A stretch of 34,712 bases of DNA from Sphaeroforma arctica JP610 (Eukaryota): the NCBI RefSeq assembly GCF_001186125.1, contig NW_014039890.1, positions 16,936 through 51,647 of the forward strand, written 5' to 3'. The translations under genes and the position numbers were made by a program. Positions 1,739-34,026 of this stretch are shown piece by piece. Under the pieces are notes generated by a model. The model did no database searches and had not been told where the DNA came from. It saw only the letters and a program-made list of their open reading frames with translations. Each line of letters starts with the position of its first letter. The first letter of the stretch is position 1.

Positions 1739-2152
1739 AAACCAGCTACTCTAGCTCCCAAGTATAAACCAGCCACTCGAGCTCTGGAGTATAAAACAGC
1801 GATATCTACTAGACAATTCCTTGGGCTCTGTTTGGAATCATCGGGTTAACTGTTTTGCACGGTTTCTGCTATTGGCAGTTTTTCTCCGACACAGGTATAG
1901 TTCTATACTGTACTTGCCAGAACGCATATATGGTGTCACTACTGAACAGTTGTCTCAAGTATTCAAACCGACGGGTTACTCGAGACGTACACCTCGGGTC
2001 CTCTAGCTCTCAGAGGTAAAATGCCAGCACACTGCTCTAGCTCTCGGGGATAATGCCAGCGGATCCCGCTTGTTCGTGGAGGTAAAATTAGCGTCCCAGA
2101 TAGTTAGTACATCTTCATTCCTGAAGCTCGCACACGTTCCGTGCTTCAGCGT

Positions 2153-2167
2153 GGGGGGGGGGGGGGG
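2153..2167 (+). promoter_or_regulatory. Polypurine tract (G15) of E0
   Basis: G homopolymer ending 1 nt before the TG of the LTR, the same arrangement as in E3. Confidence 0.85.
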
Positions 2168-2168
2168 T

Positions 2169-2402
2169 TGTGGTCAGATATGCGATTTAGGGTTATCAGG
2201 GTTTTTGTAGTTAGATATCCGATTTTGGGTTATTAAGGTTTATTTGCGGATCGGTCATAAACCCAGTTTAGGGTTCTGATCCGAATACGCACTTGCGCTA
2301 ATTGACCAGATGCTAATCGAGTAATGTTCAATAAATAGCCAACGACTCACCTCTGATGAGGGGAGTACGTTGGGATATAGTTATTGACGCGTATTTACCA
2401 CA
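2169..2402 (+). repeat. 3' LTR of E0 (234 bp)
   Basis: TGTGGT...ACCACA inverted termini. AATAAA is followed by a hairpin and ggagtacgttg, homologous to the E3 LTRs. Confidence 0.85.
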
Positions 2403-2606: not shown

Positions 2607-3020
2607 TTAGCCAGACTTTGGGCCCGCTCGTACTATAACCGTGTGGGCCCATGGTGTCTTTCCACAGGCGATCTTGCCATCCTTCAAGAAAGTATGCGCG
2701 GTTCTCGGAACTAAGATTGGGTCCTGTTGGAGTAGCGATACAAACAATTGTAACCACTCTGCTTGTGGTGCCCATGGTAAGCACACCGTGGCTGACGCTC
2801 CCTCGGACTTGATCTTCCTCAACATCCGATATATCAAATACCATGTAGGATTCATCCATACGTCGATATGCTTCCAGTTGTGCTCAAAAGCACTCCCTTT
2901 CTTATTCTCGGAGAGAAGTATCGTGACAGTTAGTGGTCCTTTTCTGAGGCGAATACATCGACGTTGTTCTTGCCCAAGAGCTGCTGCGCCTGTTTGAAGT
3001 AGTCTGGGAATAGTTTCCAG
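2607..3020 (-). pseudogene. E1 DIRS-type N6-adenine DNA methyltransferase-like (MT) domain
   Basis: Begins in frame after RNase H: WKLFPDYF..VDVFAS(2945-2959)EKDH*LSRYFS, then a frameshift to GSAFEHNWKHIDVWMNPTW(2841-2852)YLIYRMLRKIK..VCLPWAPQAEWLQLF. This fits the DIRS MT pattern DLFAS..N..LPRF.S..DAF...W....NPP/FPP..LI..VL.K....L..P.W....W. Confidence 0.78.
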
Positions 3021-4360
3021 CATTCGGCGTAAAACACCTCCATATCCTCTTCGTCGACTGTCCCCTCATGAAGTCGAAACCACGCGTCAGGCAACACATT
3101 CTTTTCGCCGGGTATGTGCGATATGGTAAAGTTGAACGGCGCTACGATATGATGCCATCTCTGTAACATCGGGTTGAGCTTCAACTGTGTACTCATGTAG
3201 ATTAATGCTTTGTGGTCCGCCAGTACGGAGAAACCGCTGCAGTGTGTAAGTCCGTACACTAATGCAAGTAGCTCCTTCATCGGTGTGGCGTAGTTGCGTT
3301 GGGCTGCATTCAATGCCTTGCTGAAAAACATGAGATAGTGCTTCCGCCCCTCCACGGTTTGGAATAGGGAACCTCCGATACCGTAGTTACTAGCGTCTGT
3401 CTCGAGTTGTACTGGTATGCCGTCCACTGGGAAGCGAAGAACTACCGAGTTTACTATCGCGTGCTTCATGGCGTCCCATGCCTCTTGGTGGCGGGGCTCC
3501 CATTTGTTCCCGATGTCCTCATTCGACTTGAGTTTCACAAACTCCCGTAAAGGCGCTACAATCCTGGCGAAGTTGGGGGTATGTTCTCGCAGGAAGTTTG
3601 CCAGGCCTAGTGCCGAGGCAATGTCTTTGTAACGCTTGGGTGTTGGCCAATCGATCAACTTTGCTTGTTTCTCGTGGCAGATGTCGATGCCTGCCTTGGA
3701 GACCTTCTTACCGAGCACCATGACTTCTCTCACTGCGAAGTGACACCTGGTTGGATTCAGCTTGAAGTTGTGGTACGTTAGTCGGCGGATGACTTCTTTC
3801 ACCACTTTCGTGTGCTCTGCTAAGTTATCCGTTGCTATAACTATGTCGTCCATGTAGTGGTAAGCGGGTAGGGCTTTCAGCACGACACTCAGGATTCGTT
3901 GAAACTGATGCGTCAACATGTGCAGACCAAAGGGTGCTGACGTGATGGAATACTGACTCTTACCGTGGGTAAAGCTGAACAAATACTGCAAGTCTGGCTG
4001 TAATTAGCAGCCTATAGTATACTGCCGTTAAGTCCAAGGTCGTGTAGTATCTCTTGCCTTCAATGTTTCCGTAATGTCGTTAATCCTCGGAATTATGAAT
4101 TGGTCTGCCGGAATCAGTGCGTTCACCGCTCTCAAATCCAGGCATACCCGGACCTTCTTCAATTCTTCCGACTAGATGTACTCTGGTACTGCTAGTAGGG
4201 GGAGGTTGACTGGTGTCGGAGTATCCCGCATAGTGATCACAAGATCTTCCTGCCATTTCTCGACTTGCTTGTCGATCCATGGGATCCACTTGTCCGCGAC
4301 GAAGTTACGTACTTCCCTTCTCATGCTCATCGCCGTCTCTTGCGTGATGGGTATCCGCAC
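3021..4360 (-). pseudogene. E1 reverse transcriptase-RNase H (frameshifted)
   Basis: APFGL, HYMDDIV, LGLANF, ETDASNYGIGG, NYATPMKELLA, DHKAL, HIPGEKNVLPD. Confidence 0.93.
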
Positions 4361-9986: not shown

Positions 9987-11560
9987 GTTGTGCTGGATTC
10001 AAGCCTTTTCAGAAGTAGATAATGTCTCTTCTGACTCCATCGATGACTTGAAACAAACACCCTCCTATGCCATAGTCACTAGCATCGTTCATGATTTGAA
10101 ACGGCACCTCATCAATCTGGTATGCTAGTGGCGATGGCTGCTTTGAGTTCTTCCCACTTCTTGATTAGTTCCGGTGTCCATAACATGGATATGTTCTGAT
10201 TCATTTTTCCCTTCATTAGGTTCCGAAAGTGTTTCGTTGTGTGGGCAAATTTGAGGACATGGTCTTGCTTATAATTTGCTAGTCCCACTGCTTTGTGCAG
10301 ATCTCTTTTTGTTCTGAGTAGTGGCCAATCCATCATTCTTTTTTGTTTCTCAGGGTCCGCTTTGAGTCCCTGTGTGGTGACTTTCACCCCAAGAATGTTG
10401 ATCACTTTGACCGCAAAGGCACATATGTTGTGATTTAGTCGGAAGTTTGCGCTATTCAGTCGCTTGATTACTCCACGAACTGTTTTGCAGTGTTCTTCTT
10501 CTGTGAGACTCGCAATGACTATGTCATCTACATACACTTGTACTCCTTTGATATCTATGAGCAGATTCGCCATGACTCTCTGAAATTGTGCTGTTAGTGA
10601 GTGTAGTCCAAACGGCGCGGACTTGAATGAATATTGCGCTCCTCTCCACGAGAATGCGAAGAAGTGTTGGCCTGCTTCGTCTACTAGGAAGTGATTAAAT
10701 CCTCCTGTAAGATCTAGCTTTGAAAAGAACTGTGCTCCTTGTAGGTTGTGTAACACTTCTTTACTTTTGGTAACACAAACTTGTCCTGTTCATATTGATA
10801 ATTGATCTCACGTAAGTCTAGACATGTCCTGACTTTTTTTGAGTAGACCTGTTTGGTCATGTTCTCCTGCTGATAACAACGGCAGGTTTACCGTTGTGGG
10901 TTTGTCGCGTTTGTATATGTGACCATCTTTAAGCCATCGTTGCACATTCTCGTTCGTTTGCGGAATGTATTTGTGCGGAACAAAGTTGACTTTAGCGTGC
11001 CTCATTTGTCTGACGCTGATTTCATTTGCAGGTACCGTGACTGTGGAGCCTGGTAGGTTACAATGAACATCAGGAGGTATATTCGCACTGGTATCCAGGA
11101 GGTCTGTAAGTGACTCTCTGAAACCTTCTTGTTCATGCTCTAAGTCTTCTTCATGTGGTGTGAGGAGTGATTCCCATTTTGCATCTGTTGGTATGAATGG
11201 GTTGATTAACCCTGCTATGTATATACCTATGTATGGTAGAATGTCCATACCTAGAAGTATTGGTGTCTTTTTGTCTGGTAAGTCCAATACTTCAAAGCAC
11301 TGAGAGGTCATCCTCCCTCCATAGTTAATGTCACAAACTTCTGTTGATCCAGTGCGTTGTATTATTGCATCTGTTTGTACTCGTTGTATATACCCAGGTT
11401 GCGCTCTAACAGACAGATATAGTTCTGAAACTACACTTTTGTCCATGCATGAGCGTTGTGCCCCTGAGTCTACTAGTGCATTGTATGTATTGCCATTTAT
11501 TTGTATAGCAATGTGTAAACGTTGGTCTCGTGGTGCGGGAAGTAAAGATAAAGGTTAATA
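9987..11560 (-). pseudogene. E2 pol fragment (protease-RT-partial RNase H)
   Basis: DSG at 11462-11470, ILLGMD, FSKLDLTGGFNH, APFGL, VYVDDIVI, and DASDYGIGGCLFQ at ~10050-10090. Confidence 0.92.
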
Positions 11561-11659
11561 ATTTATATCATTTGCATTTATTAACAACGTTTCTTCATCT
11601 GTAAATACATAGAGTCTGTCAGCCAGATCAATCATGTTCGCTTCCGCCCACCAGTGTTT

Positions 11660-13108
11660 TCAGTGCTCATCACCTTCTGTGATGTCTTCCACCTTGCCAG
11701 ATGTAATGGACAGTCTTGCTATCTGTACATCTTTCTTGGCTCGCTGCTCAGCCTTCTTGGCTTGGACTGCTTTCTTATCGGGACATTCGCTGTACCGATG
11801 TGGGTATGGCATTACCAGGCAGTAGGGGCATGCACGTTCTTCACGTGCTTCTTTCTTTTTCCGTGTCTGCTCCCCTTGCTTGTTCTGGTTTTGTAAACCA
11901 TTGTCTGTTTTGTGACGTTCGTTGGCGTTCGTGGAGTTATCCTCCACTTGCGTGTTCGTCTGTGCATTATTGCGCTTATTTGCAGCTCGCGCTTGATCTC
12001 TCAACATACACTCTCCTTGTGTTACAGACGCCGTTCATATGTGTGTCTCAGTCATAGTATGAAACTTGGTATGTTCTATGTCAGACAGGTGTCCTTCACT
12101 TCCATCAGGTTGCTTGTCTCCTTTGATTAGGAGATCCACTACTGATTGTAGTCCATAGTACTTAAGTGCTAGGTACCTTTGTACTTGGAGGATTTGGAAG
12201 TGTATGGGTTCCTTGTCTGAGTTGCGGTGACGCTCCTCTAACATCGCCATTGTCTTGTGCACACGCTCTGTGCGCACTTCGACGTTCATCTTCTTATTCT
12301 GCATGTCATTGAGAAACTTCTCCAATAGATAGTCTACTGGGTGTGATCTGAGTCGATCAAGAAAGATTCTATTGAACTGTTCAGGATCAGTGAAGTGACT
12401 AGTCGTTTGTGTCTCAGAGTCTCTTATGTTATTGAGTACTGCTTTGGTTTTCTCCGTTGCATCAGTGGAATCTAATAATCTTCTCACTTGCGCTGGATAC
12501 TGACACAATGGCATTGACGTAGCTAAGAACAGATAACTACATTGTGTAGTGAACTCTGTGATATCTTCACAGTTTTCCAAACTAAAGAAACTATCTTTAG
12601 TCCTCTTGGGAAATTCCGATGTCTTGAGTAATTTCTCAAGAGACGGTTCATTTATCTGATCTCCTAACCGGGAACGCATGAGCTCTAGCTTACTAATGTA
12701 CAGACCACTTTGTATGAGTTTGTCCTCTTCATCATCATCACAATTGTTGATCGCTTGGTCATATCGTCGTCTGAGCTCCGCATCCACTAGTGGCATGCGA
12801 CGCTCTGGCTGTTGATTATGTATGCCTACCCTCATCTTGTTCAGAGTTGGTATGGGCACCGGTACTGTCTGTTCCAATTTGGACACAAACCGACTCACCA
12901 GAACAAGATTGCATTGACAGATACTCTGGTCTATTTCTAGACACATTGCTGACGCTGCGATGGGTACCCCCGCCGGTGTAGGCTGACCCGAACTACTGTC
13001 TGGGCTTGCCTCCCCCATTGGGCTGACTCCCACGACACCTGCGCCTTCACTACCGCCTTCACTACCTTACCCCCCATTGTACACGCTTGTTCTGGTTGCT
13101 GTTGGCAT
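11660..13108 (-). pseudogene. E2 gag-like region (frameshifted)
   Basis: A 332-aa and a 115-aa ORF lie directly upstream of the protease and include a CPYC-x6-H-x4-C knuckle. Candidate ATG at 13108. Confidence 0.7.
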
Positions 13109-13462: not shown

Positions 13463-13637
13463 GTTCGGTCCTTGTGACGTCACCGAAAAAGGTAGGTCCT
13501 GTCGACGTCACCGAAGAAGTTCAGTCCTGTCGACGTCACCGAATAAGTTCAGTCCTGTCGACGTCACCGAAGAAGTTCGGTCCTGTCGACGTCACCGAAG
13601 AAGTTCGGTCTGTTGACGTCACCTCTTGATGTTCGGT
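13463..13637. repeat. 28-bp minisatellite, ~6 copies (gtcctgtcgacgtcaccgaagaagttcR), in the E2 leader
   Basis: gacgtc occurs at 13476, 13504, 13532, 13560, 13588 and 13615. Confidence 0.93.
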
Positions 13638-15747
13638 CTTAGTCACTGCACATGTATTGATGTGTGCACCACCTGTTGTGTGTGTGGTTTCTAAGTGATT
13701 CTCACTTGTGATCCTTTTTGGTGCTTGTGTGCTTCCTTGTGTGGATCTCACTGGTTGTGTGCCAGCTTTTGTGAAGCTTGTTTGGCTCGCGATGTCCTTG
13801 GGCTTGCTGTTCTTGTTCGCCACTTGCTGTCCGTTCCTAGGACTGTAGCTTGTGAAACACAGTGATTGATTGTGTATTTCAATTGTGTATTTCAATGTTG
13901 TGTACCAATGATTGAATTGGTCACTTGTATGTGTGTGTCGTCTCTCTACTGCAGGTTATTTGACCTATGTGCTTTTCAAGTGCTCCCCTGACTTTGCTTT
14001 TGTACGTGTTATGTCGTACTGTGTGTGTTCCTGCCCTTCAGGTTTATGGTTGCACGTTGTGCTATTGTTTTGTGACGAGCTGATTGCTCTTGGATGTTAA
14101 TTCACCCTGTTGTGTCTGTGTATTGTTTATTTTTGAATGTTTGTTTGTACCTCAATGAAGACCATTCGTTGTTAGCGATGCTTTGTGCACTTTATGTATT
14201 ATTGGCTTGCTTGTAGCTCAATGCGCTAGCCTACATTTGGTGTAATTGATTGATTGCCACTCTGATTTGTTGATTGAGTGTTTTGAATCTTGTATAGCTT
14301 GTATAAAGTGCTGCGTTGTTTGTATGGAAATGGCTTGCCCTTCTAATGATTCTATATTGAGATCTTTTCATATCCTAGTAGGAAGTATTGTCATAATCTC
14401 TAGTTTATGTTAATGAATGGAGATCACTTATTTGAAATCAGTGAATCTTGTTTTAATGACTATCATGTGATCACAAATTGTGATGCTTAAGTTCGTGTGT
14501 TCACAAAGAGTGGTACTTAAGCCTTATTTGTGTCTTGTATTAAGTAGTGGTGCTGATTCCTCATTCCCCTGTGTACCGCACTACGTGTTCCATATCATGT
14601 TACTCGCTCACCACACTTTCGTCCTGTTTTGATCGTTTTTAGACTATAATTGTGCTTGATCAGGCCGTTGGTGTGTGGCTATATGATCTTGAGAGGTACT
14701 CTGGTAGTATGTTGTTTGTACTCATAGGTATACTTTGAGTTTTAGCTATTAGTGTTCCTCGATTGTATGTTCGATTTGTGTGCACCTTCTAATTTAACTT
14801 CTGATATTGAGTATTGTACTCAGAACTTCGCTATGATTCACTATGAATATCTCCTGACTTGGGAGCTACTTTTTGCTAAGGCATACCTCTTTGTTATCAC
14901 TAGTTGGATCTTCCGATCTCTATTTTTATTTATTAAGATTCTCAATACTATAAATTACTTTGAAATGTAAGTGATGCTTCTTGTGAACTTATTGATCCTC
15001 TTAATTGATCGATCCTCCTATCTGGTAACTAGTCTTTTTAGTGTTGTGTCCACTCTTCTTATGCTCTAGATAATGTGTACACATAGATGCTCTATCTCAC
15101 TTGTTGTTTGCTTGTTACATTATAATGTGATGATTGAATCTTATATTGCACTGTGCTGATTGAATCGTAGATAAATGTTGTCTTTACCGTGTTCTGTGTT
15201 CTTACTATTCGTCTAGAGAGACTTCTGTGTACGTGTAGTGATGTGCTTTTTGAAAGTCTAACGTCATTTTGGTTTCTTGTCTGAAATTTCCTGAAAAAGC
15301 TCAACATTGATAGATCGATCACCTTGATAGCTTCTCAGTTTTCACTAGTTTATGCCTTCACGCTGGTACTTACTTGTACCTCTCTATACTTGATAACACT
15401 CTATTAACATAGTACACTTACCCCAAATATTCAGTACACAATGCTGTTACCTTGTATGTTCCCTTTTTTGTTCACTAGTGAGTCTATGCCGGAGCTCGCT
15501 TCTTTGCTTCTTCCACTCACTTCTTGTTGGGCCCCGGCTGGCTAGCTGGTGGGAACACGTTTATTCGCCTCCTCTTTCTTGTCTAGCTTCCTTGGCTGAC
15601 TTGCTGAAACTTCTTCTTTGTATCTTTACCTTGAAACTGAAATAGAGCTTATTCGGTATTACTAGATACTTATTGTGTACTTCACTTGTCACTTGCTTTG
15701 TTAGGTGGAAGTCAGTTGACTTATCTAAGTAAAGATATTGTAAATAA

Positions 15748-16301: not shown

Positions 16302-17825
16302 CTATGGGTGATATACTATCGGTGAAGAAAAAATCGTGAAGAAGTGCGGATCTACCAAACGTACCTCCTGCGCCAACATCCTGAACAGTTTAGCCGAAGA
16401 TGCAATCTCAATCGTTTCTAGATTTTGCGCAATAGTAAATTGGTTGTCTTTGCGCAACATCGGAGGTACGTTATATGTGCATCCAGCCGGTAGTAAATCA
16501 GCTATATGAAATTCTTTATCACCCATCGCGGCGGAACCAGGCCACATCTTCACGTATAGAGCCTTTCTACATATCCGAGATATTTTCCGATCATTTATTT
16601 TGCCGGGATACAACGGAGACACATATGTGCAGTGTCCGGCGGCTGACATTCCCACGAGCCTTTTTACCGTATTATGATGTTTGTACTTGCTATTTGTTGC
16701 CTTTTGGAAATCTAGATTGGACAGAGTCTAGATGAAGAACTTTACAACAGTGAAGGGAGTAATATGTGTTATTGATAATTGAGTATGATGCAATCCCTTT
16801 GTATTTATAATATACGTGCATACAATATATTCATTCAAAGTACTACGTTAACATATTGAGCGCTCTTCAGACACACGAATACATACCTGTGCAATCGACA
16901 ATTAGTTATGTTTTTGGATGCTTGTCCATGAAGCAAGGTAGCCGTAGTGCATCCACAGTTGCCTTGTTGAAGAAAGTCATCGGTGCATTACCAGGATGAC
17001 GGATATAACCCAAAAGTACTGCATTCATATCATTGAGAATATTTGATACGGTCTGTGTACAAATTAATCCAAACAAGTGTGTTAGGATGCTTGATCTAAG
17101 TTGTACCTAACCCTGGCGAACCACAACAAAAGGGCGTTCCGAAAAGTCAGTGTATTTCGTCCGGGTCTGAATGCTTTACCATATTCCTCTATATTATCCG
17201 CAAAAGCCAGAAACTTAGCGGGAATTTGAAATCCTGTCCAGAAGCGAACCTTCTCTACATCCTTATATACATACTCGTACGTCAGTTTGTAAACGTAAGT
17301 CTCTTTAAAAGTCTTCGCCATCCCGTCAAATATGTTGCTTCTCATTGAGTTTTTCCTCCAACAAACTCAATTCAATCTTTTGCTTGAAGACCTGTCGTGT
17401 GTTCCTGTTCTACACTTTTCATCTCAGTACGTAGTTGGTCAAATTCTGCTTCCAACGCTGCTAACTTAGCAGCAGATCTGCTAAGAGCCGCTATCTTCTC
17501 TTCTAGCTGCATCTCAGTAGTGTTCACCTTAGTGTGTCGCCTTTTTACTGGTATGATATTGTCATCTGGATGTATGGTAGCAAGTGGTCGCCTATTCGAA
17601 TGTAAACTGGGTCGGGAATTCTCCTGCAGAGATTCCAATTGCATCATCTCATTCAGTAATCTCTGCTGTTCTAACGCTTCCTGTGCTAAACGTGAACGTG
17701 CAATATGTGCCCGATATCGTTCTGCCGTCATTGGAACAGCATCGCTTGTGAGTTTTGTATGTCTCCATGTTTTACGTATATACTTATATGACAGTGTTTT
17801 GTGCACAATTTATGTTGTATTTTTA
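16302..17825 (-). pseudogene. ISL2EU/PIF-Harbinger-type transposase pseudogene (THAP remnant, HTH_Tnp_4, DDE_Tnp_4)
   Basis: LCTKH..KLTSDAVP (THAP end), a coiled coil, KVRFWTGF, RNALLLWFARVRYNL, LIVDCT(E) split by an intron (GTATGT at 16886), SKYKHHNTVK.LVG, YVSPLYPGKINDR, MGDKEF and NVPPML..NQFT. The RIHVE motif is missing. Confidence 0.85.
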
Positions 17826-18544
17826 TCTCACAATGAAGTTGACCGTCCCGTCAACCAGAACCGTGTGCGATCTTGGTACCAGACTGTGGCATTCTGGCAA
17901 CGCTATATTGTCGGTTCCTCCCAAGATCTTGAAGCCCATATCAGTCTTGCTCAAAGATGGAGTGCGATTTAAGTGGGGTGCTGACCAGCAGGCCGCGTTT
18001 GATTTAATCAACGCGCGTCTGAAGACATGTGCAGTCCTTGCTACGCCGGAACTGGGTGACCGGCTCTATCAGTTCGCTGATGCTTGTGGGCATATCGGCC
18101 TTGGTGGTGCGATATGTGTGCTGAGGAATGGGGAACTCTGGCCAGTGGCGTATATTTCCTCCAAGTTCTCACCGGACCAGCTCAACAATCACGTAACTGA
18201 CAAGGAGTGGCTTGTGCAGGTGTACGGTCTTCGGAAGCATTGGATTGTGTTTGGTAACTCTCATCACCCTATCACAATCTTCACGGACCATCAGGCACTT
18301 TTAACCCTGTGGCACCGTAAGCCGTGGCCGGCGGCAGGCACGCTGGCAGGAGGCTTGTCGGGACCGTGATGGTTATCTCTTGCATGTGTGGGGTGGGTAA
18401 GGACAACGGCACAGCGGATATGCTGAGCCGCCTTGCAACTAAGGTGGATCTGTGGATGGATCCGGTTGGGGCGCGAACAGCTACCCCTGTGCGGCGAATT
18501 ACGTGGCGGTACCCGGTCGCCCGCCTGGTCCTCTCCACAGTAAT

Positions 18545-18926
18545 GAATATATGGCCAATAACAAGTATTTCAATGTGGCTTATAAGGCTTGGGGTCCGGA
18601 TACCCATTCCCAGGCAATAACCACTTGCCCTCTTATTTCTCCCCCTCTTTGGAGGGCGGTGCGTTCTCCAAATTATGGACGTTCCTCAACTTTGAGATGA
18701 ATTGCCCGTGGGCCGCTGTCCCGCGCGAAGATTATCGCGGATGAAGAAGACATTTCATTAACGTGTCCTTATCTCCCTGATTCCCCAAGGTTTCAGCTGA
18801 TGTTATCTTTGTTGTCGCGGGAGCCCATCATCATTCCTCCGGAGAAAGGGGTCTTTTTTTCGCTATGGACATGAAGAGATGCCACCTCGCTGGGGTACTA
18901 AGTTGTTGTGTAGGCTATCGGCCAAG
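18545..18926 (+). pseudogene. E4 N6-adenine methyltransferase-like (MT) domain
   Basis: Read across two frameshifts: EYMANNKYFNVAYKAWGP / GNNHLPSYFSPSLEGGAFSKLWTFLNFEMNCPW(18700-18711)AAVPR / KIIADEEDISLTCPYLPDSPRFQLMLSLLSREPIIIPPEKGVFFRYG..PPRWGT. Colinear with the E1 MT domain. Confidence 0.72.
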
Positions 18927-19289
18927 GGTGCCAATTTCCAGGATACTAAGGATTTTTGGCGTCAGCGTGACGCGTTCGTTCCAGGAGCTGTGGCTGGGGA
19001 CGCCACCCACTCGGTTCTCCGGACTAGTCCGCGAACGGTGCCCCCCCCCAACCCACTCCCGTGGAGCTGTCTTCAATCGAGCGAAAGGCTGCGCAGGGCA
19101 CGGAACCTAAGCGCAAAATACCTGATCGGCGTGTGCACAGGGCTAGTGCCCGACATGGGCAAGTCCAGGCAGCTGTGCAGAGGGACTTGCCCAAATCTAA
19201 GGGCAAGGTCGAACCGTCAGTCAAGCGTGCCATGGAAGGCTCTTCTCCGTATCGGATTCGGGGCTTCATATTTTCTTGGCCGGAAGTCT

Positions 19290-20264
19290 ACAGTGTCATT
19301 GCGGCCACCCACAGAGTGTATATGCATACAGGAACTGACAAGCTGATGGGCAAGCTGTATACCCTTTATGGATGGAACGGCCTGCGATCCCTGGTCCGAG
19401 TGATCAAGCGATCGTGTCACCGTTGCTAGTTACGGGCTCCGCATAGTGCACAGGAGTTGGGCTTACTCCAGCAGCCCAAGCGTGCGCGCGGGTTGTTTAA
19501 CCATGTGTTCATGGACTTTGCGTCTCTGCCTAAGACCTTAACGGGATATACTCATCTTCTGCTGGTGGTGGACAGAGCCACTTCGATGGTGTTAGTAAAA
19601 CTATCTCACACTAAGAGTGCTCGTAAGGCTATTAAGTTCAAAAATGAAGTTGTTCATCCTTGGGGTCAACCCAAAATGTACACGTGTGACAAGGATTCTG
19701 TCTTCATGGCCAAGGAATTTGCTGACTTTGCAAAGCAATCAGGCAGGGGAAAGCACGATGTCACCACTGACCATCACCAAGCCAATTGTGCAGCCAAAGC
19801 TATGGTGAAGGTTGCTCAGGATTAGATACTCAAGTCTATGACTGCGCAGGATGAGGGTGATTGGGTCCCTTGGTTGCAACTGTTACAATGCTGCGACTAC
19901 CGCCACTCAAGATTTCGCCCCATATACGATGGCTACCAACCGTGTATATGATGGGGAGCGTGAGTTCAACTTCGAAGCCGACGTATGTTGCCTCCTGGCC
20001 ACTGAGGACTCTGCCCATGCCTTAGTGCGTGATGATGCAGCGTTCCAGTGCACCCAGCATGCTAAGGAAGCGCAAAGGGCGAGGGCAAATAGGGTTCGCA
20101 AGCGGGCTCAAGAACTTGCTCCCGGGTCTCTGGTTAAATTCAAGTCTTCCCCGGATCGTCCGAAGTTGGATGATAAATGGAAAGGCCCTGCTACTATACG
20201 GTCGCAGGATGGCCCGGTAACGTACACTATCTCGTTCCAGGGCAAAGGAGTCAGTCGCCACTGA
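19290..20264 (+). pseudogene. E4 integrase (HHCC finger, rve core, GPY/F-like C-terminus)
   Basis: THRVYMHTG...SCHRC, FNHVFMDF, HHQAN, WKGPATI, with several premature stops. Confidence 0.88.
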
Positions 20265-20919
20265 ACCCAGCTCTGTCCGTATATATCTCCCATTTTCCCA
20301 AATATTGGGCAGGAAGTCGATTTGGTATTCTCGGCGATTACGAGCAGTGGCTATTCATGCGGTCCCTCTTTCGGAAGGCACCGATCGAGTGGCGCAGAGC
20401 GGTGTTGCACCACCATCGGCACACTGAGAAGGGCCAGACGTGGAAGGGTCTAGTTAACTCGGCCTTTGGTCTTTTGCAGAAGGCGTATACCCGTAAGGAC
20501 AAGCGGGTCAAATACAACTTATCTCCTGCGGTTCGCAAGTTTTTGCGCGGGAATGGAAGAGGCTCTCCCCGGGCACTCTTCAGTCACGCATGTCCCTGGT
20601 CGGGTCGGCGTTGGCGTTTGCTCAGGTCCCCACATTCCGTGCCGAGAAGGTTAAGGAATGGACGGACGCAGCGAACAATAGGGATATTTAATCTTTTATG
20701 CTTTTCATTACCTGACATAAACAGCGACATCAAAATTTGTACATGGTATAAAAACCGAAATTTTCAAATCCTATTGGAAATTTGCTTCCGATGGCTCGAG
20801 TTGAAAACAAACGCATGTTTTTGTCCAATAAGACCGTAGTAGTGAAGATTTTTGTTCAAGAAAAACTTGCACTGTGCAACTTGCTGCCTACGACTTGGTG
20901 GCTCGGTGGAAAAGCCGCC

Positions 20920-21130
20920 TGTGGTCAGATATACTCTATTTAGTTTATTTCACGTTTTTAGGTTTATTTGAAAAAGGGTCATAAACCCTGGTTTAAGGTT
21001 TATGACCAATTTTATACACATGTTAAATATTAGAACCTATGGTTCATTTTATAATTCAATAAAGATACAACGTCTCCCCTTGTAAGAGGGGAGTACGTTG
21101 AGATATTGTTAACTCGCGTATTTGACTACA
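20920..21130 (+). repeat. E3 5' LTR
   Basis: 203/211 identical to 27220-27430 by manual comparison. Confidence 0.97.
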
Positions 21131-22421
21131 TTTTTAACAAGCTTATTAGTTGTAATTTATTGAAGAAAAGTGATAACCGACATAGTCTAAAGAAGACAGA
21201 TTAATGACCCATATTTTTTTCGCTAGAATAAGAGCGTCAATATCAGGACAATGGAGAAACCCCCCAGGAAGTCACATGAGAGAGGGAAATACACCCATAG
21301 GACTGTCCACGACAGACCGACAGCTGGGAAGCGAGGATACCGGGTTCGGTAGTAGTGAACTGAGCCTACCATCATTGTTGTCAAACTCAGGAAGCGACTC
21401 CGATGTAGGCAACGAAGCAAAAGGCTACCCAAATGAAGAAATGTCACCACCACGCGGATCGCTCTGTGAAATGAATCAACCCCTAGACATGAGACGGCAG
21501 AGATCAGCCAGATGGTACATCTCTAATACAATAAGTAGTGACGAGAGACAGGAATACACGAATGTGTGGAGGAGACGACAAGCAGGACTTCCAACGAGGT
21601 TACGACGAATAGTGAGTGTACCAGACACACCGAGGTTTTGGGGACATGACCATGACGAGGAAATGAACGAAGAACACTGGACAGGGGAAGTTTGCTATGG
21701 ACAAGGTAAGTCTCTATGGATAACAAGGAGACGTACAACAATACACTGAAATACAGGTGGAGTCTATAGGCAGATGAGTGTTGATAGGAAGGTGTGAACA
21801 TTAGTAATGAGCAAATATGAAATAGTGTACATGAGGTGTGTGATAAGGGATCAGTAGATATTAGCGGTACGTATATGGAAGTGAATCATTGTGTATTGGC
21901 CTCGTATAAGTGTAACATACGATAGCGACTAGTTATGAGCAGCATAAGTGTGGAAGTATAGGTGTGAGAAGAATACCACAAAATTCGATATGAGACACGT
22001 AATAGCATCACATTGTGGAGTATGCGCGACAGAACAGCTGTCAGCGAAGAAGTAAGAGGAGCAAGAGATGCAGGATGGGTGGAATAGAGAAAGAATAGGT
22101 AGACAACACGTACGGTCGGGACTAGATAGATAGAACGAGTATGTAGACAAAAGAAGCACGTGCGACAATAGGGGGAGCATGAGACGTGTGACCATAGGGG
22201 GAGCATGAGTCTAAAGCAAAGAGCAATGAAGGAGAGTTACTCCATGCAATTAATCTGCACGAGGAGTAGTGAGTCCATGGACTCTGGGAGTAGGCAGATG
22301 TAATTGAGAAGTACATGTGTGTCAAGAGAGGTGCCATCCGTTGCATATATAAGCAACAGATAAATAGGTTAAAGATAAATTATTCTCGACTTAGACATAC
22401 AAGCACCGTAACCTTACTGCA

Positions 22422-24560
22422 ATGCCGAGCACCCGTAAGAGTCGTCGGCAGCATGGTCTGGAACTCGAGCAACATGTACGTAGTACGAGCCAACTACGAG
22501 GTTTTAAGCGTAGAGCTGGCCTATCTCAAGAGGGAGACCAAGGGTTGTCTGAGGACCAGCGAGGGGAGGCAGACGAACCATTTCAGGCGACCAGAGCGTT
22601 ATTTGGCTGAGTCTCAGCATCGCCGAGCGAAAGCAACGAGTCGTCACCTCCGAGCGCCCACACATGGCGTTGTAGTGATATGGGACAGAAGCGTCAGAAT
22701 GACGGTGGCAGGGTTCTACACCAACAAGGACAGACTCGACCTCGTCAGAAGCGACGCCCTTACCGTCAGAGCCGTCAACACGTGAGCAATGCACAATCCA
22801 AGAAACAGCAAGAATTGCTGGAGAAATATGAGCAGCGGCTGCAACACCTTCAGCGGCAGGCAGAGAGACCTCGAGGAGGTCCGACCACTTTTTCTCCAGA
22901 TCAGGGCCAGGAGGAGAGTATTAGTACCAGTCAGCCGCCGGAGTCAGTTGGGGAGAATAAACGTTTAGAGTTCAGGATTCCAGGCAGTCCGGTTAGATAC
23001 GGAGTCGGATACCAAGCCCCAGCCCAAGGGATGGAACCTCACGACTCAGATACACCACGGGCGGCGATCTCCCTACAAGATTCTGTACATGCGCAGCAAA
23101 GAGCAGCACAAGACCTTCATGGGCCGGAGGCGCTGGAAAACCGTCGTGATCGATTATCGGAGACGGTTCATTCTCAGCGACAGAATCGACGATTCGAGGC
23201 GGAGGCACTACGAGACTCGATACCCGAACACACGGTGTTATCGACCCCTGCGACACAGGTATCCCCACCAACGGCTGGTGACAGGGTGACCCCTCCGACA
23301 CCGGAGAGTATTGCGGCGGATCGCCAAGCGCTTCATGCGCGGATGCTTCGACTATCGGAAGAATTGTGCAGTGCGGTTGATGCAGATGATCTTCTACGTG
23401 CCGAGGCGCTGAGAGGGGTGTTAGAAACCTTACGAGCCACACATGACTCGCACCCCGTAACCAAGCACGAACCACGAGAACCGAGAAGCTGGCCTGAATG
23501 GCCGTCGAACCGATACCAACTACACAATGTATTCGAGAGAGATACTAAAGGAGCCCTGGTGGAGGCGCTGAAGAACGCACAGATCTCGGGCCTAGACACG
23601 GCGTGGAGTTTACGGTGGTTTTATAAGGTTCTGAGCCACTTCAAGACCGAGCAGTCTACTTTAGATTACATCAAGTCCAACCACCAACGGTTGCTTAATT
23701 GGACTCCAGAGTTGCAGATAACACAGATCTGCTCTCGCGAAACTCAAGCGACAGTCGACCCCACATCCCGCAAGTTGGCGAAGGGACACTCTCAGGTGTC
23801 AAATGTACCTATTATGGAACAGATGACACAATTAATGGAGAATCACAGACGTGCCCACGAACGCAGCCAGACGGATGCGGAATTCAAGCAAAACCTTTTG
23901 AACCACTGCATTGTGCAGTTGTTGGAAGACTCTCTTGGGTCTCGTACATATAAGCGGACGCTACAACTGCACGCCAAGTGGCACTTGATGGAGACTCACG
24001 AATTGTTGCAGCTTCTCAGTCCTGATATTCAAGAAGCACAGACAAGAACTACGGCGCGGATGTCGAAACGACGACCACATACCAACGATCATCAACAGGG
24101 GGGTGGGACGGTAGCTCGTACACCGCATATGACCACTCCACGAGGGACACAACAGTGGCAACAGCGCATGCCACCGTCGAATACAACAACAACATGTGGC
24201 GGGTGCCAGGCACAAGCACCACCAGGGTTGAGGCACATTCCTCGCTGTCATAACTATAGGGCAGCGACCCAGGACAACCGTGGCCGCACGTCAGAGACAC
24301 GTCAACGTGGCCCGGGACCGCATAGTGCAGTAACACCTTCCACAACGATAACACCATCGGTTCCACCGGTACGGAGCGTGGGAGGCGACAACACGACGCA
24401 ACCATAGGTCCATAGTCTCACAGACACGTCGGCGTGGGATACCCCACCTACCGCCACGGATCTACATATTGGAGCGCTGCTTTCTGGTGATATGGGGGTG
24501 AGTGATCTGACAGGAGACGATAAGATATCCCCCAAATGGTCTCCCATATCAGATCAACCT
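22422..24560 (+). pseudogene. E3 gag-like region
   Basis: The frame from ATG 22422 runs through the 575-aa ORF (22680-24407), with stops at 22608 and 24405. Homologous to E1 gag. Confidence 0.8.
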
Positions 24561-26510
24561 TGTAATATCAGGGTGTCTGACGATGATATAGCTTTGACGT
24601 TTGCGTATACAGGATACTCGGTACAGGCGATAAAAGACCCACAGTTAACAGCAGATCAACGGGTGTGTGATCAAGTTCAGTTGAATGGTCGCACATTCCG
24701 AGCCCTGGTAGATTCAGGCGCAAATAGAAGTTGTATTTTGCAGGCATCCGCAGAGGCGCTAGGCCTTCCGATATCTCCGGCTCCTCCTGATTCATACATT
24801 TATTTGGCGGATCAAGCGGCGCGTACTCGGCGACTGGGGATGACGAAGAGCATCCCAATTAGATATGGAGCGGTTATAACTAACGGTTCCTTGGAGCTCA
24901 GGAATCTACCGGTAGGCATCGATGTGATCATCGGGGTAGATATTATGCCTGGCTTAGGTTTATACTTAGGAGGACTACAATCTCTGTTAGCACCTATAGA
25001 TCCGACAGAGTTGGATAACTTACTGAAGCCGATCACTAGACGGCAAGCCCCAGATTTAACCGAGCCTGACGGCATCCGGGAGGATCCAAAATCAATATTA
25101 GAGGCGAATGCAGCGATTACAGATAGCGCACGATGCTGATTGGAAGGAAGTGAGGTGACCATACCGGTCACTAGAGACCAAGCAATGAACATGCGTCGTT
25201 CAACTAGGAACTTTGTGTCAGACCTATGGATACCATGCGTGGAAGAACAGGTGCAGAAGTGGCTACGAGATTTAGTCATTATCAAGCAAACTACTCCAAC
25301 TACAGTGAATTTACCACTATTAGCGGTACCGACCTTTGATAGCGAGGGGAATGTCAAGAAGGTACGAGTTTGCCTCGATATGCGAGCAGTCAATGCTCTG
25401 ATCCCAGGCGACCAATTCCTGATCCCCAAGATGAACGAGATCATATCGCGGTTACAGAGCAAGAAGTATTATACAACATTGGATATCTCAGCAGCGTATC
25501 ATCGTTTGCCGATTCACCCAGATTCTCAGTACTTGTTTAGCTTCACCCATGGGCGCCACCAATATTCATTTACATTGGCGCCATTCGGTCTGCACGTTAT
25601 CACCCAGAAATTCCAACGGACGTTGAGCACAATCTTGGATGGCCTCCCCGTGAACCATTACATCGACGATATAGTGATAGCGGGTGACGACTATGAAGAG
25701 CATAAGGCAACGGTTACAGAGGTGATTCGCCGTCTTACATATCATAGCTTCAAGTTGAATCCTGATAAATGTCACTTTGCGATCAGGGAGGTAATGATTC
25801 TCGGAAAGAAGGTGTCAGCAGCAGGTATTGATATTGATTTCGAGAAGCAGGCGGAGCAGCTGGATTGGCCGACCCCGCAGCGTTACAAGGATATAGCATC
25901 GGCGCTAGGTCTTGCGAACTTCCTCCACGAACATCTTCCAATTTTTGCGCACATAGTAGCACCACTTCGAGAGTTCTGTAAGCTGAAACTTAACGAGTTG
26001 ATTGGGACAAGGTGGGAGCCTCGCCACGCAGAGGCGTGGGCGGCTATGAAGACGACGATTGTTAACGCGGTGGCTCTACACTTCCCAGTGGAGGATATTC
26101 CCCTGAACTTGGAGACAGATGCCAGTACTATGGCATCGGAGGGGCTTTGTTCCAGTAGGTGGAGGGAAAGAAGCGCTACCTTATGTTCTTCAGTAAGACT
26201 CTTAATCAGGCACAACATAATTACGCCACGCCAACGAAGGAATTCTTGGCGCTTGTATATGGGCTTACACACTTCCGAGATTTCATCGACGGGCAGCGAT
26301 TCGCAGCATTCACGGACGATAAGGCGCTAGTGTATATGAATACACAGTTGAAGTTGATCCGATGCTACAACGCTGGCACTACATTATAGCCCCGTTTAAC
26401 TTCACTATATCAACATTCCGGGAGAAAAGAATGTTCTCCCTGATATGTTGAGTAGGGTCCACGAGGGGACAGTGGAAGGCGATATACCAGAAGTAATGTA
26501 TGCAGATTGT
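24561..26510 (+). pseudogene. E3 protease-RT-RNase H
   Basis: ALVDSGANRS, VRVCLDMRAVN, LDISAAYH, APFGL, HYIDD, ETDAS, TKEFLA. Stop at 25137-25139 and frameshifts in RNase H. Confidence 0.95.
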
Positions 26511-27039
26511 CTACAACGCCTAGATCGCCTCCAGGATACGATCTTACCAATGTTGCACAGGCTGACGATGCGATACACGGACACTTTGATGAGGAACTTC
26601 GATCTGGTGCACTTTGAGGAAGGCGATGTGGTGATGGTCAAATCGGAAGGGCGCACATCGAAGGCCATGCGCCCTTTGTTTGGTCCATATGTAATTAAGG
26701 CCGGAACGGACAGGGGTACGACCTTGCTCATCGGGATGGTTCGATTCCATCGGAATTCAAGGGTCGACCGGTTCGGGCTGGATTTATACGGATGGTCCAC
26801 AGGAGCACGGATCCACACCCCTGGACGAGAGTCTATGGCGTGAGGACGGGTTTGCGTTCCGACACATCATTAAACATCGCATGAATGATAAAACTGGTCA
26901 GACGGAGTACCTAGTGCGCTGGCGTGAAGGAAATCCTACCCGAGAAACGGCCGAGGCGTTTGACGATGCTAATGACATCGTGGCATACCATAAGGATACA
27001 CAAACACGCTCTCGCAAGCGCCGACGGGAAGCAGTGTAA
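26511..27039 (+). pseudogene. E3 integrase C-terminus and chromodomain
   Basis: FEEGDVVMVK..RPLFGPYVI (GPY/F motif). The frame from 26821 reads FRHIIKHRMNDKTGQTEYLVRWREGNPTRETAEAFDDANDIVAY, matching the chromodomain pattern I..HR...EYLV.W.G..TWE. Confidence 0.85.
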
Positions 27040-27208
27040 CAAGTATGGTTGTGCAGCATTCTTATTGTTCTTTTCTTTAATTTGCGTTATTTCAAGTTAT
27101 CTTAATGCCAGCGGATCCCTCTTGTTCGTAGAGGTTAAACCAGCGTCCTATGTATAGCGAGTATATCTTCACTCTTCTGAAGCTGGCACACGTACCGTGC
27201 TTCAGCTT

Positions 27209-27218
27209 GGGGGGGGGG
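27209..27218 (+). promoter_or_regulatory. E3 polypurine tract (G10)
   Basis: G-run ending 1 nt before the 3' LTR. Confidence 0.88.
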
Positions 27219-27219
27219 T

Positions 27220-27430
27220 TGTGGTCAGATATACTCTATTTAGTTTATTTCACGTTTTTAGGTTTATTTGAAAAAGTGTCATAAACCCTGGTTTCGGGTT
27301 TATGACCAATTTTATACACATGTCAAATATTAGAACCTATGGTTCATTTTATAATTCAATAAAGATACAACGTCTCTCCTTGTAGGAAAGGAGTACGTTG
27401 AGATATTGTTAACTCGCGTATTTGACTACA
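27220..27430 (+). repeat. E3 3' LTR
   Basis: Direct repeat of 20920-21130. Confidence 0.97.
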
Positions 27431-27833
27431 CGCCGTTAGCCCTCATATCCTCTCACACACTCAGATATCCATACCATCTTATTTGTTGTCCCACAGTTTT
27501 CTCATGCCTAACACCTGAGCTGTGTTAATATATGGGTCTCCTGACACAACACCATACACTGCACAGCAGCTCACATACAGTCATATCCATTTATATACTC
27601 CGGCTGAAACCCCCAGAATTGAAAATCCTAAAAGTAAACTGACGATACGCAAGTTTATATTGCATCAGTTTAATTAATCGGCTTAAGCTGTAATTCTTCA
27701 GCCTAAGCTATAATTATCATAGGAAAATGTGTGCGTATCAGGTCTAAAAAGAAGTGACACAAAGTTACAAACAGGGACCACACCCTTATGGTCACTGCAA
27801 TAGTTGTTTCGCACAATGAACCTTTGGATTGTT

Positions 27834-28098
27834 GTATGGTTGCGGTCTACCGACTCATAGGGGGTTTGTACGGTTGCGGTCTACCGACTCATAGGGGGTT
27901 CGGATGGTTGCGGTCTACCGACTCGTAGGGGGTTCGTATGGTTGCGGTTTACCGACTTATAGGGGGTTCGTATGGTTGCGGTTTACCGACTCATAGGGGT
28001 TTCGTATGGTTGCGGTCTACCGACTTTATCATGACGTTCGCATGGTTGCGGTCTACCGACTAATTCAGGGGGTTCATATAGTTGCAGTTTACCGGCTT
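27834..28098. repeat. 34-bp minisatellite, ~8 copies (gtatggttgcggtctaccgactcatagggggttc)
   Basis: ggttgcgg occurs at 27838, 27872, 27906, 27940, 27974, 28008 and 28044, with a degenerate copy at ~28080. Confidence 0.95.
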
Positions 28099-28294
28099 AA
28101 TTGGACACATGTATTTAAATTTAGCACGTGAGTTTATCTTTTGATGCTGCACACCATCCGTGATGTCCGGAATAAGTAAATAAAAGTGATTATCGCTTTC
28201 AAATGAAGGGTGGAAGTTGATGACACACTTCGATCTGGTCAGAATACACAGGCAGATTCTAGACCAACTAGTGAAATCCCAATTTGTGAATTCT

Positions 28295-32748: not shown

Positions 32749-34026
32749 ATGTCTGATTTCGAGTTTCTGTTTACCTCTGAATCCGTCGGTGAGGGTCACC
32801 CCGACAAAATCTGTGATCAGGTATCTGACGCTGTTCTAGACGCGTGTCTGGCCGAGGACCCTCAGTCGAAGGTAGCCTGCGAAAGTGCGTCAAAGACCGG
32901 TATGATCATGGTCTTCGGCGAGATCACAACTAAGGCTGTGCTTGACTATCAGCAAATCATCCGTGGTGCCATTAAGAAGATTGGTTACAACGATTCCTCT
33001 CTAGGTTTCGATTACAAGACGTGCAACGTCATGATTGCGATTGAGCAGCAGTCTCCAGATATTGCACAAGGTGTTCACGAAGAACGTGATGATCTTGACG
33101 TAGGCGCTGGTGATCAGGGAATCATGTTTGGTTATGCGACCGATGAAACTCCGGAGTATATGCCTCTTACTTGCCAGCTGTCGCATCAGCTTAATGCCAA
33201 GCTTGCCGAGCTTCGTCGTTCAACGTATGTTCCATCCACTGTTTTTTTACGTTCCGCACTGCACACAGTCCATTTCTCTGCCCTATCTCGTTTCCTTATT
33301 TCATTCACTGTCTCGATCATTAACAAATACCACTTTCTATCGCAATTCAATAGCCATCCTTGGATTGGACCCGACACCAAGACTCAGGTCACTGTGGAGT
33401 ACAAGAAGTCCGGTGGATCTCTTGCTCCCGTCCGTGTGCACACAGTTGTAATTTCTGCACAGCACACTGATGACATCAAGCAGGATGCTATCGTTAAGGC
33501 TCTAGAGGAAGATGTTGTCAAAGCCGTCATTCCCGAGCGCTACCTTGATGCCAATACTGTACTTCACTTGAATCCAAGTGGACGATTCGTTATCGGCGGA
33601 CCTCAAGGTGATGCCGGACTAACAGGCCGTAAGATCATTGTAGACACTTACGGAGGTTGGGGAGCTCATGGAGGAGGTGCCTTCTCCGGCAAGGATCCAA
33701 CCAAGGTTGATCGATCAGCCGCCTATGCTGCTCGTTGGGTTGCCAAGTCACTTGTTGCAGCCAAGTTGGCAAACAGATGCCTTGTGCAGCTTTCATACGC
33801 CATTGGTGTAGCTAAGCCCCTATCTGTGTTCGTAGACACTTATGGAACTGGAACCAAAACTGATGGTGACATTGTCAAGATCATCGAGCAGAACTTTGAT
33901 CTTCGCCCTGGAGCTTTGATCCGTGATCTGGATCTATTGAAGCCGATATATCAAGACACAGCATGCTACGGACATTTCGGCCGCAATGAGTTCAGCTGGG
34001 AGAAGCCCAGAATCCTCAACTTTTAA
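32749..34026 (+). CDS. SAM1: S-adenosylmethionine synthetase (methionine adenosyltransferase); exons 32749-33224 and 33354-34026; 382 aa
   Basis: [99 protein letters not shown]. The true start is ATG 32749, not the TTG at 32632. Confidence 0.97.
33225..33353 (+). other. Spliceosomal intron (129 nt) in SAM synthetase
   Basis: GTATGT...cattaac (branch point)...caatag. Removing it gives [18 protein letters not shown], matching the conserved RR...PWLRPD.KTQVT block. Confidence 0.92.

What the first reader, a model, noticed from the sequence alone, without database searches (positions are those of the whole stretch)
18545..18926. Second, divergent MT domain between RNase H and the integrase HHCC finger in E4
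The ORF track misses this because of two frameshifts. The hand-joined peptide aligns colinearly with the E1 domain: HLPSYFSP/H*LSRYFSP, GGAFSKLW/GSAFEHNW, EMNCPW/WMNPTW, KIIADE/KIKSEG, CPYLPDSPRFQLMLSLLSREPIIIP/LPWAPQAEWLQLFVSLLQQDPILVP, VFFRYG/TFLKDG, PRWG/TPWA. Here it is clearly flanked by RNase H (~18070-18440) and a DDE integrase (from ~19290), which fixes the order RT-RH-MT-IN. The E4 RNase H is very different from that of E1/E3, so the architecture is old or was acquired more than once. The DxFAS motif appears lost in a small deletion near 18600.
Basis: partly seen in the sequence, partly recalled or inferred. Interest (0 to 1): 0.85.

Follow-up and report, generated by a model that had tools for sequence, protein, structure and literature searches.

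The report
Dead Gypsy retrotransposon carrying adenine-methylase domain
This is a broken copy of a Gypsy-type jumping gene, likely from the animal relative Sphaeroforma, that carries a real adenine-methyltransferase-like domain between RNase H and integrase; this kind of element was described in a 2026 preprint, and the twist here is an altered catalytic motif shared with a sister copy.

Summary
Observation confirmed. Window 18542-18914 is a decayed DIRS-type Dam-like methyltransferase domain between a Gypsy RNase H and a zinc-finger/DDE integrase. A profile from 74 homologues scores it at 61 bits; the best shuffle reaches 6.4. It has three frameshifts, not two. They are genomic: contigs from four studies match with 0 differences. 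Paralogous copies show purifying selection in the inferred frames (16 of 27 changes synonymous, 7.3 expected). Intact RT-RH-Dam-IN polyproteins exist (8 of 29 scanned). Named close relatives are Sphaeroforma arctica proteins. This is a DAM-LTR element, a kind described in bioRxiv 10.64898/2026.05.21.726589, including in S. arctica; this scan also noted the kind in other genomes. Not in that preprint's main text: motif IV reads N-C-P-W and a sister copy keeps it; the integrase is far from the E1/E2 lineage (AU p 0.034, long branch); the closest solved fold of the family is the RNA cap methylase PCIF1 (weak, Z 6.5). Whether this was a second capture is unresolved (DAM tree AU p 0.40). Methylase activity is untested.

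The parts
17834..17970 (+). Remnant of RT thumb/connection; 5' truncation point of this copy
   Evidence: Paralogous contigs have loose ends before 17834; thumb-like residues read by eye; no RVT_1 hit here
17974..18437 (+). Ty3/Gypsy-type RNase H, frameshifted near its C-terminal end
   Evidence: Pfam RT_RNaseH_2 E 1e-12 and RT_RNaseH E 4.4e-10, both above cut-off
18542..18914 (+). DIRS-type Dam-like (PF05869-family) N6-adenine methyltransferase domain in four pieces
   Evidence: Profile score 61 bits vs 6.4; hhalign; purifying selection
18605..18612 (+). Break 1: deletion of about 13-14 nt that removes the D-x-F-A-S block (likely cofactor-binding)
   Evidence: 6-residue gap in the profile alignment; paralogue has 14 more letters over 18525-18640
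18700..18711 (+). Motif IV reading N-C-P-W instead of N-P-P-W
   Evidence: Codons read; no change listed in the paralogous 2364-nt contig; same residues in the loose-end reading of two more contigs
18724..18727 (+). Break 2: 8-nt deletion relative to a paralogue
   Evidence: Paralogous contig has 8 extra letters behind 18723
18857..18860 (+). Break 3: frameshift in a T run
   Evidence: Frame change; paralogue alignments end here
18915..19285 (+). Pro/Lys/Arg-rich linker of about 126 codons
   Evidence: Spacing of 33-191 aa in six relatives; no PHROG or NCBIfam hit
19286..19885 (+). Integrase zinc finger (H2C2) and DDE core, with two in-frame stops
   Evidence: Integrase_H2C2 E 4.1e-5 and rve E 7.7e-6, both below curated cut-offs; stops counted; 30% to P0075
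19884..20290 (+). Integrase C-terminal region with an SH3-like (GPY/F-type) module
   Evidence: Matches P0075, P0011, P0012 tails; paralogue P0093's Atlas model aligns to SH3_Tf2-1 clusters, under the bar
20282..20688 (+). Unassigned, predicted helical C-terminal domain of the E4 family, frameshifted near 20542; 3' truncation at about 20683
   Evidence: 89% to S. arctica P0093; paralogous contig colinear to 20608, loose ends at 20683; no family hit
2610..3025 (-). E1's Dam-like domain (comparison copy; motif IV N-P-T-W; one stop, one frameshift; element ends just after it)
   Evidence: 141.7 bits on the same profile; sequence

Best explanation
This is a dead, doubly truncated copy of a Ty3/Gypsy-type retrotransposon with a Dam-like domain between RNase H and integrase; in active ancestors the domain was likely made as part of the Pol polyprotein and would likely have put N6-methyladenine on the element's own new DNA copy so that fresh insertions stay transcribable. 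Shown: the domain, its order, its decay, past purifying selection, and in-frame fusion in intact relatives (identity about 0.95 sure). Inferred: Pol packaging brings the domain to the cDNA or RNA-DNA intermediate inside the particle; the host enzyme AMT1 then maintains the mark (the preprint's model). This copy itself cannot work: it has three frameshifts in the domain, has lost D-x-F-A-S, and lacks gag, protease and RT.
For: Domain real and colinear. 8 of 29 proteins scanned have RT, RNase H, Dam and integrase domains in that order in one chain (P0001, 7, 8, 13, 18, 24, 61, 66). A paralogous contig runs colinearly from RNase H through DAM and integrase at about 84% identity. 16 of 27 paralogue differences are synonymous against 7.3 expected (p 4e-4); the two other frames give 3 and 4. 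The catalytic Asn and the aromatic residue of motif IV are kept, and the first Pro acts through its main-chain carbonyl (PMC3814359, passages), so Cys there need not kill activity (inference). The preprint reports more 6mA and more expression on DAM-LTR insertions than on other LTRs in S. arctica. A family member matches phage N6-adenine methyltransferase models (TIGR01712 E 6.5e-11, below its cut-off; phrog_111 E 3.7e-13).
Against: No activity has been shown: the preprint's E. coli expression of retrotransposon DAMs did not raise 6mA, and eukaryotic DAMs lack part of the prokaryotic enzyme. Iyer et al. judged DIRS1 MTase domains likely inactive (PMC4738411, passages). N-C-P-W was absent from the 62 of 74 homologues in which the motif could be read (53 are N-P-P-W/F/Y). 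The best structural match of a family member is the RNA enzyme PCIF1, ahead of E. coli Dam (Z 6.5 vs 5.2). The 6mA enrichment is a correlation and AMT1 alone could explain it. No intact E4-family polyprotein was found.
Confidence: 0.5

Rival explanations
1. The domain is a catalytically dead methyltransferase fold kept as a nucleic-acid or protein binding module of Pol (for example binding the template RNA or cDNA).
For: Motif IV drifts in both lineages of this window (N-C-P-W in E4, N-P-T-W in E1) while the domain stays under purifying selection. The heterologous assay was negative. Iyer et al. proposed inactivity for DIRS MTases.
Against: 53 of 62 readable homologues keep N-P-P-aromatic, and the profile consensus keeps the D-x-F-A-S block. 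E4's closest integrase relative P0075 has N-P-P-W. The Asn is kept in E4.
Confidence: 0.25
2. The domain methylates RNA, not DNA: like PCIF1/CAPAM it would put N6-methyl on the cap-adjacent or internal adenosines of the element's own transcript, stabilising it or helping its packaging.
For: PCIF1 is the only PDB sequence hit of the family profile (E 1.5), the top three Foldseek rows (E 0.03-0.07, TM about 0.5) and the top VIA row (Z 6.5, rmsd 3.5, 112 aligned), followed by rRNA methylases. One of 19 alignment members hits Pfam PCIF1_WW (E 0.0012). RNA dimethylases replace the first Pro by a small hydrophobic residue, as E4 does with Cys. It would explain the negative genomic-DNA assay.
Against: All structural scores are weak (Z under 8; within about 1.3 of E. 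coli Dam). The model is of a lineage-A fragment (P0003), not of E4. Sequence models place the family with phage DNA methylases. It does not explain the 6mA enrichment on DNA.
Confidence: 0.2
3. The segment is a stray DIRS fragment nested in an ordinary Gypsy copy, or a chance resemblance made by hand-joining frames.
For: E4's best pairwise DAM scores are to DIRS-like proteins (149 and 145 against 113 for the best lineage-A protein). The window is a nest of broken elements.
Against: Shuffle tests; the colinear paralogue across RH-DAM-IN in four studies; frame-specific synonymous excess; P0075 carries a similar DAM and the closest integrase, though that gene model may be joined.
Confidence: 0.04

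Closest known systems
DAM-LTR retrotransposons, ichthyosporean lineage (Fernandez-Moreno et al., bioRxiv 10.64898/2026.05.21.726589; whole main text read; supplement not visible)
   Same: Dam-like domain in a Ty3/Gypsy-organised element with DDE integrase; reported from S. arctica; no chromodomain detected in E4.
   Different: E4 has N-C-P-W, not the Asn-Pro-Pro triplet; it has an unassigned C-terminal domain; its integrase falls outside the E1/E2-type group. The window thus holds two deeply divergent DAM-LTR lineages where the main text describes one. The E1/E3 family has a divergent chromodomain-like tail (Pfam Chromo E 3.8e-5, 1 bit under cut-off).
DIRS1-type tyrosine-recombinase retrotransposons (MT domain after RNase H)
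   Same: Same methyltransferase family, same place right after RNase H; E4's best pairwise DAM matches are DIRS-like proteins.
   Different: E4 has a Gypsy-type RNase H and an H2C2/DDE integrase; no tyrosine recombinase was detected in its span.
PCIF1/CAPAM cap-specific adenosine N6-methyltransferase
   Same: Closest solved structure to a family member; link already proposed for DIRS MTases by Iyer et al. (PMC4738411).
   Different: Only 12-16% identity and weak scores; PCIF1 is a cellular enzyme of about 480-500 residues in those structures; substrate of the retrotransposon domain unknown.
Phage N6-adenine methyltransferases (Pfam PF05869 Dam, TIGR01712, phrog_111)
   Same: Relatives of the domain pass the Pfam Dam cut-off.
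   Different: Only the first 100 or so of 169 profile positions match; embedded in a polyprotein; no activity shown.

Membership tests
DAM-LTR retrotransposon | Dam-like domain of the eukaryotic retrotransposon family | tested here: met
   61 bits on a profile of 74 homologues; 12 of 19 members of alignment A1 hit PF05869; E4's own pieces are too broken to hit Pfam
DAM-LTR retrotransposon | DDE (rve) integrase with H2C2 finger rather than tyrosine recombinase | tested here: met
   rve E 7.7e-6, H2C2 E 4.1e-5, both under curated cut-offs in this decayed copy; aligned with intact integrases
DAM-LTR retrotransposon | Ty3/Gypsy order (RNase H before integrase) with DAM between them | tested here: met
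   colinear paralogue
DAM-LTR retrotransposon | RT groups with Ty3/Gypsy RTs | not testable with these tools
   This copy has no RT core, no whole genome is held, and no intact E4-family protein was found
DAM-LTR retrotransposon | Long terminal repeats and target-site duplication | tested here: inconclusive
   E4 is cut at about 17834 and 20683; no repeat pair flanks it. The other lineage's E3 has 211-nt LTRs and a 4-bp duplication
Ichthyosporean DAM-LTR clade of the preprint | DAM domain falls in the single ichthyosporean clade | tested here: inconclusive
Ichthyosporean DAM-LTR clade of the preprint | No chromodomain | tested here: met
   No hit downstream of E4's integrase by Pfam or a three-sequence profile; the copy is truncated at 20683
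Canonical active N6-adenine methyltransferase | Motif IV (N/D)-P-P-(Y/F/W) | tested here: not met
   N-C-P-W in E4 and in a paralogue
Canonical active N6-adenine methyltransferase | Intact cofactor-binding block (D-x-F-A-S in this family; role recalled, not tested) and open frame | tested here: not met
   Deleted in this copy, three frameshifts
Canonical active N6-adenine methyltransferase | Methyl transfer to adenine | not testable with these tools
   Needs an assay; the preprint's E. coli test of other members was negative
DIRS1-type retrotransposon | Tyrosine recombinase | tested here: inconclusive
   No hit in E4's frames; the unassigned C-terminal domain could not be folded (pLDDT 46)
DIRS1-type retrotransposon | No DDE integrase | tested here: not met
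   E4 has H2C2 and rve

The most novel reading that the evidence does not exclude
The E4 family is a second, independent capture of a DIRS methyltransferase by a Gypsy element in Sphaeroforma, and its N-C-P-W domain is an RNA methylase of PCIF1-like fold that marks the element's own transcript rather than DNA. That would explain why retrotransposon DAMs failed to methylate E. coli DNA.
Probability: 0.08. Interest if true: 0.7.

Novelty: new member of a known kind. Interest (0 to 1): 0.25.

Why it matters
As found, it is one more decayed example of a kind published in May 2026, from a host that the paper already covers. What it adds is modest. Two very different DAM-carrying Gypsy lineages sit side by side in one locus. 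One keeps a non-canonical motif IV under purifying selection, which gives a natural contrast (N-C-P-W against N-P-P-W families in the same genome) for asking whether catalysis explains the 6mA on these elements. The structural lean towards PCIF1 suggests testing RNA substrates, which the preprint's main text does not mention.

Tried and rejected
No whole genome is held, so copy number and intact copies could not be counted. Word-based protein searches for longer relatives of E1's DAM and E4's integrase found none. Metagenome scans with E4's integrase and with P0093 and a viral scan with P0093 found no relative. No RNA holder was listed among sequencing runs, which says nothing on expression. 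Assembly error as the cause of the frameshifts: rejected. N-C-P-W as post-mortem decay of this copy: rejected. The C-terminal domain: a weak Atlas lead to DNA polymerase B clusters (score 0.91, 125 of 256 features, low recognition) was not repeated with P0093. A by-eye likeness to tyrosine-recombinase core-binding domains (recalled) got no support from Pfam, PHROGs, NCBIfam or PDB, and the single-sequence model was too poor to search with. The RNase H tree does not place E4 (AU p 0.29). All tree references carry DAM, since they came from a DAM search, so monophyly against DAM-less Gypsy elements was not tested. A fold search of viral structures was not run. Look-ups of this scan's notes by place and by sequence were empty.

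Full report
Setting. The window is eukaryotic and holds a nest of broken retrotransposons next to a SAM synthetase gene. No whole genome is held. The named close relatives of the elements are Sphaeroforma arctica proteins: P0093 is 89% identical to E4's C-terminal ORF, and P0002, P0003, P0010 and P0075 carry that name (4 of the 10 proteins looked up). The host is therefore inferred to be Sphaeroforma, an ichthyosporean.

The observation. Three-frame translation shows the quoted blocks in order. E1's methyltransferase ORF finds 18728-18838 as its best non-self hit (E 2.5e-4). A search of 1.84 billion representatives with that ORF gave 89 proteins at E up to 0.001; I scanned 67 of them against Pfam, and many carry PF05869 Dam. 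A profile from 74 of the 89 finds three colinear pieces at E4 in the unjoined six-frame window (i-E 7e-7, 0.056, 2.3). Read with X at the breaks, E4 scores 61.0 bits against at most 6.4 for the 1680 reported of 2000 shuffles. E1 against E4 scores 103, with 0 of 5000 shuffles reaching it. Profile comparison of two unjoined pieces gives 87.7% and 96.5%. The domain runs from about 18542 to 18914 and has three frameshifts.

The breaks are real and the domain belongs to the element. Contigs from four studies match 18323-20608 with 0 differences (one of the four runs may be the window's source). A second contig of 2364 nt follows E4 from the end of RNase H through DAM and integrase at about 84% identity, has 14 more letters across the first break and 8 more at the second. 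Of 27 differences between window and paralogues inside the domain (3 of the 30 listed were left out, as they lie at indels), 16 are synonymous in the inferred frames against 7.3 expected (p 4e-4); the two shifted readings give 3 and 4. So the domain was protein-coding and constrained while the family spread.

Architecture. RNase H lies upstream (Pfam E 1e-12) and an H2C2 finger and DDE core downstream (E 4e-5 and 8e-6, under curated cut-offs). E4 is cut at about 17834, beside a DDE_Tnp_4 transposase remnant, and at about 20683. It has no RT core, gag, protease or LTR, so it fixes only RH-DAM-IN. The full order comes from intact relatives: 8 of the 29 proteins carry RT, RNase H, Dam and integrase domains in that order in one chain. 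One of them, P0001, is 75-84% identical to E2 of this window. After the integrase E4 has an unassigned domain shared with P0093. It hit no family and gave only a poor model.

Motif IV. E4 reads N-C-P-W. The paralogous 2364-nt contig lists no change there, and the loose-end reading of two further contigs (agreement 0.82) gives the same residues with a synonymous change. Among 74 homologues the motif could be read in 62: 53 were N-P-P-W/F/Y and none N-C-P-W. P0075, whose integrase is E4's best match (30%), has N-P-P-W. In DNA m6A methylases the first Pro acts through its main-chain carbonyl, and RNA dimethylases carry a small hydrophobic residue there (PMC3814359, passages). The change therefore neither proves nor excludes activity. 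A whole-word search for NCPW with methyltransferase found 0 papers.

One capture or two. E4's RNase H is 27% identical to E1's. In the integrase tree (18 rows) E4 falls outside the 11-row group that holds P0001, and forcing it in is rejected at AU p 0.034, on a long branch. In the RNase H tree (16 rows) p is 0.29. In DAM trees E4 sits inside the E1-type group when P0075 is present (48 rows, 91/89, long branches meet) and next to a DIRS-like protein when it is not (33 rows, 78/91), with AU p 0.40 for the joint clade. All references came from a DAM search, so there is no DAM-less Gypsy control. The backbone is clearly divergent; the number of captures is not resolved.

Mechanism. The best-supported model is the preprint's: the domain is part of Pol, travels in the particle and methylates adenines on the new cDNA or hybrid, after which host AMT1 maintains a transcription-friendly mark. 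Support is the reported 6mA and expression excess of DAM-LTRs in S. arctica; against it is the negative E. coli assay. I give it 0.5. A non-catalytic binding role (0.25) follows Iyer et al. (PMC4738411, passages) and the motif drift in both lineages here. An RNA substrate (0.2) rests on PCIF1 being the top hit by sequence profile (E 1.5), Foldseek (E 0.034) and VIA (Z 6.5, rmsd 3.5, 112 aligned; E. coli Dam 5.2) for a model of family member P0003 (pLDDT 77). All three scores are weak, and the model is not of E4.

What is known. Fernandez-Moreno et al. (bioRxiv 10.64898/2026.05.21.726589; whole main text read) describe DAM-LTR elements, at least four transfers from DIRS, and an ichthyosporean lineage in Pirum, Abeoforma and S. 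arctica. Searches listed no earlier title that describes a Gypsy element with Dam; of these I opened only the preprint and Iyer et al., and PMC5890265 (cytosine methylases in retrotransposons) was seen as a listing only. This scan's notes list 23 similar findings in at least 3 other genomes; I found the preprint before reading them and did not check them.

Verdict. The feature is real and correctly read. It is a new, dead member of a recently described kind, with a small twist in motif IV and an open question of a second capture. Interest 0.25.

Noticed in passing
window 20282-20688 (+): Unassigned, predicted helical domain at the end of the E4 family, where related elements have a chromodomain-like tail; conserved in S. 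arctica P0093. Leads to polymerase B fingers (Atlas, weak) or a tyrosine-recombinase core-binding domain (by eye, recalled) were not confirmed.
   Followed up: partly
window 20920-27430 (+), E3: Complete insertion with 211-nt LTRs (96% identical, TG...CA), a G10 polypurine tract and a 4-bp target duplication, but with an internal deletion that removes the DAM domain and integrase core compared with P0001. It may be a non-autonomous derivative.
   Followed up: partly
window 26833-27036 (+): Chromodomain-like tail in E3 (Pfam Chromo E 3.8e-5, 24 bits vs cut-off 25.1); similar tails in P0011, P0013, P0017, P0018. E3 is the close sister of DAM-carrying E1, which sits awkwardly with the preprint's statement that ichthyosporean DAM-LTRs lack chromodomains.
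   Followed up: partly
window 9988-13066 (-), E2: Truncated member of the family of intact polyprotein P0001 (75-84% identity); ends within RNase H, before the DAM domain.
   Followed up: partly
window 16305-17809 (-): PIF/Harbinger-like DDE_Tnp_4 transposase remnant (E 1.5e-14) with a second short ORF; lies at E4's 5' truncation.
   Followed up: no
window 2051-2400 (+): 3' end (polypurine tract plus LTR) of another E3-like element, meeting E1's truncated end tail to tail. These LTRs contain an internal inverted repeat (I10).
   Followed up: no
window 13463-13638 and 27800-28100: Tandem arrays of 28-nt and 34-nt units.
   Followed up: no
proteins P0016 and P0019: A different architecture among the hits: an endonuclease/exonuclease/phosphatase domain, then Dam, then RT, RNase H and integrase finger, so Dam lies before RT.
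   Followed up: no
window 32750-34026 (+): Host SAM synthetase gene with one in-frame intron-like insert; its nearness to the methyltransferase elements is probably chance.
   Followed up: no
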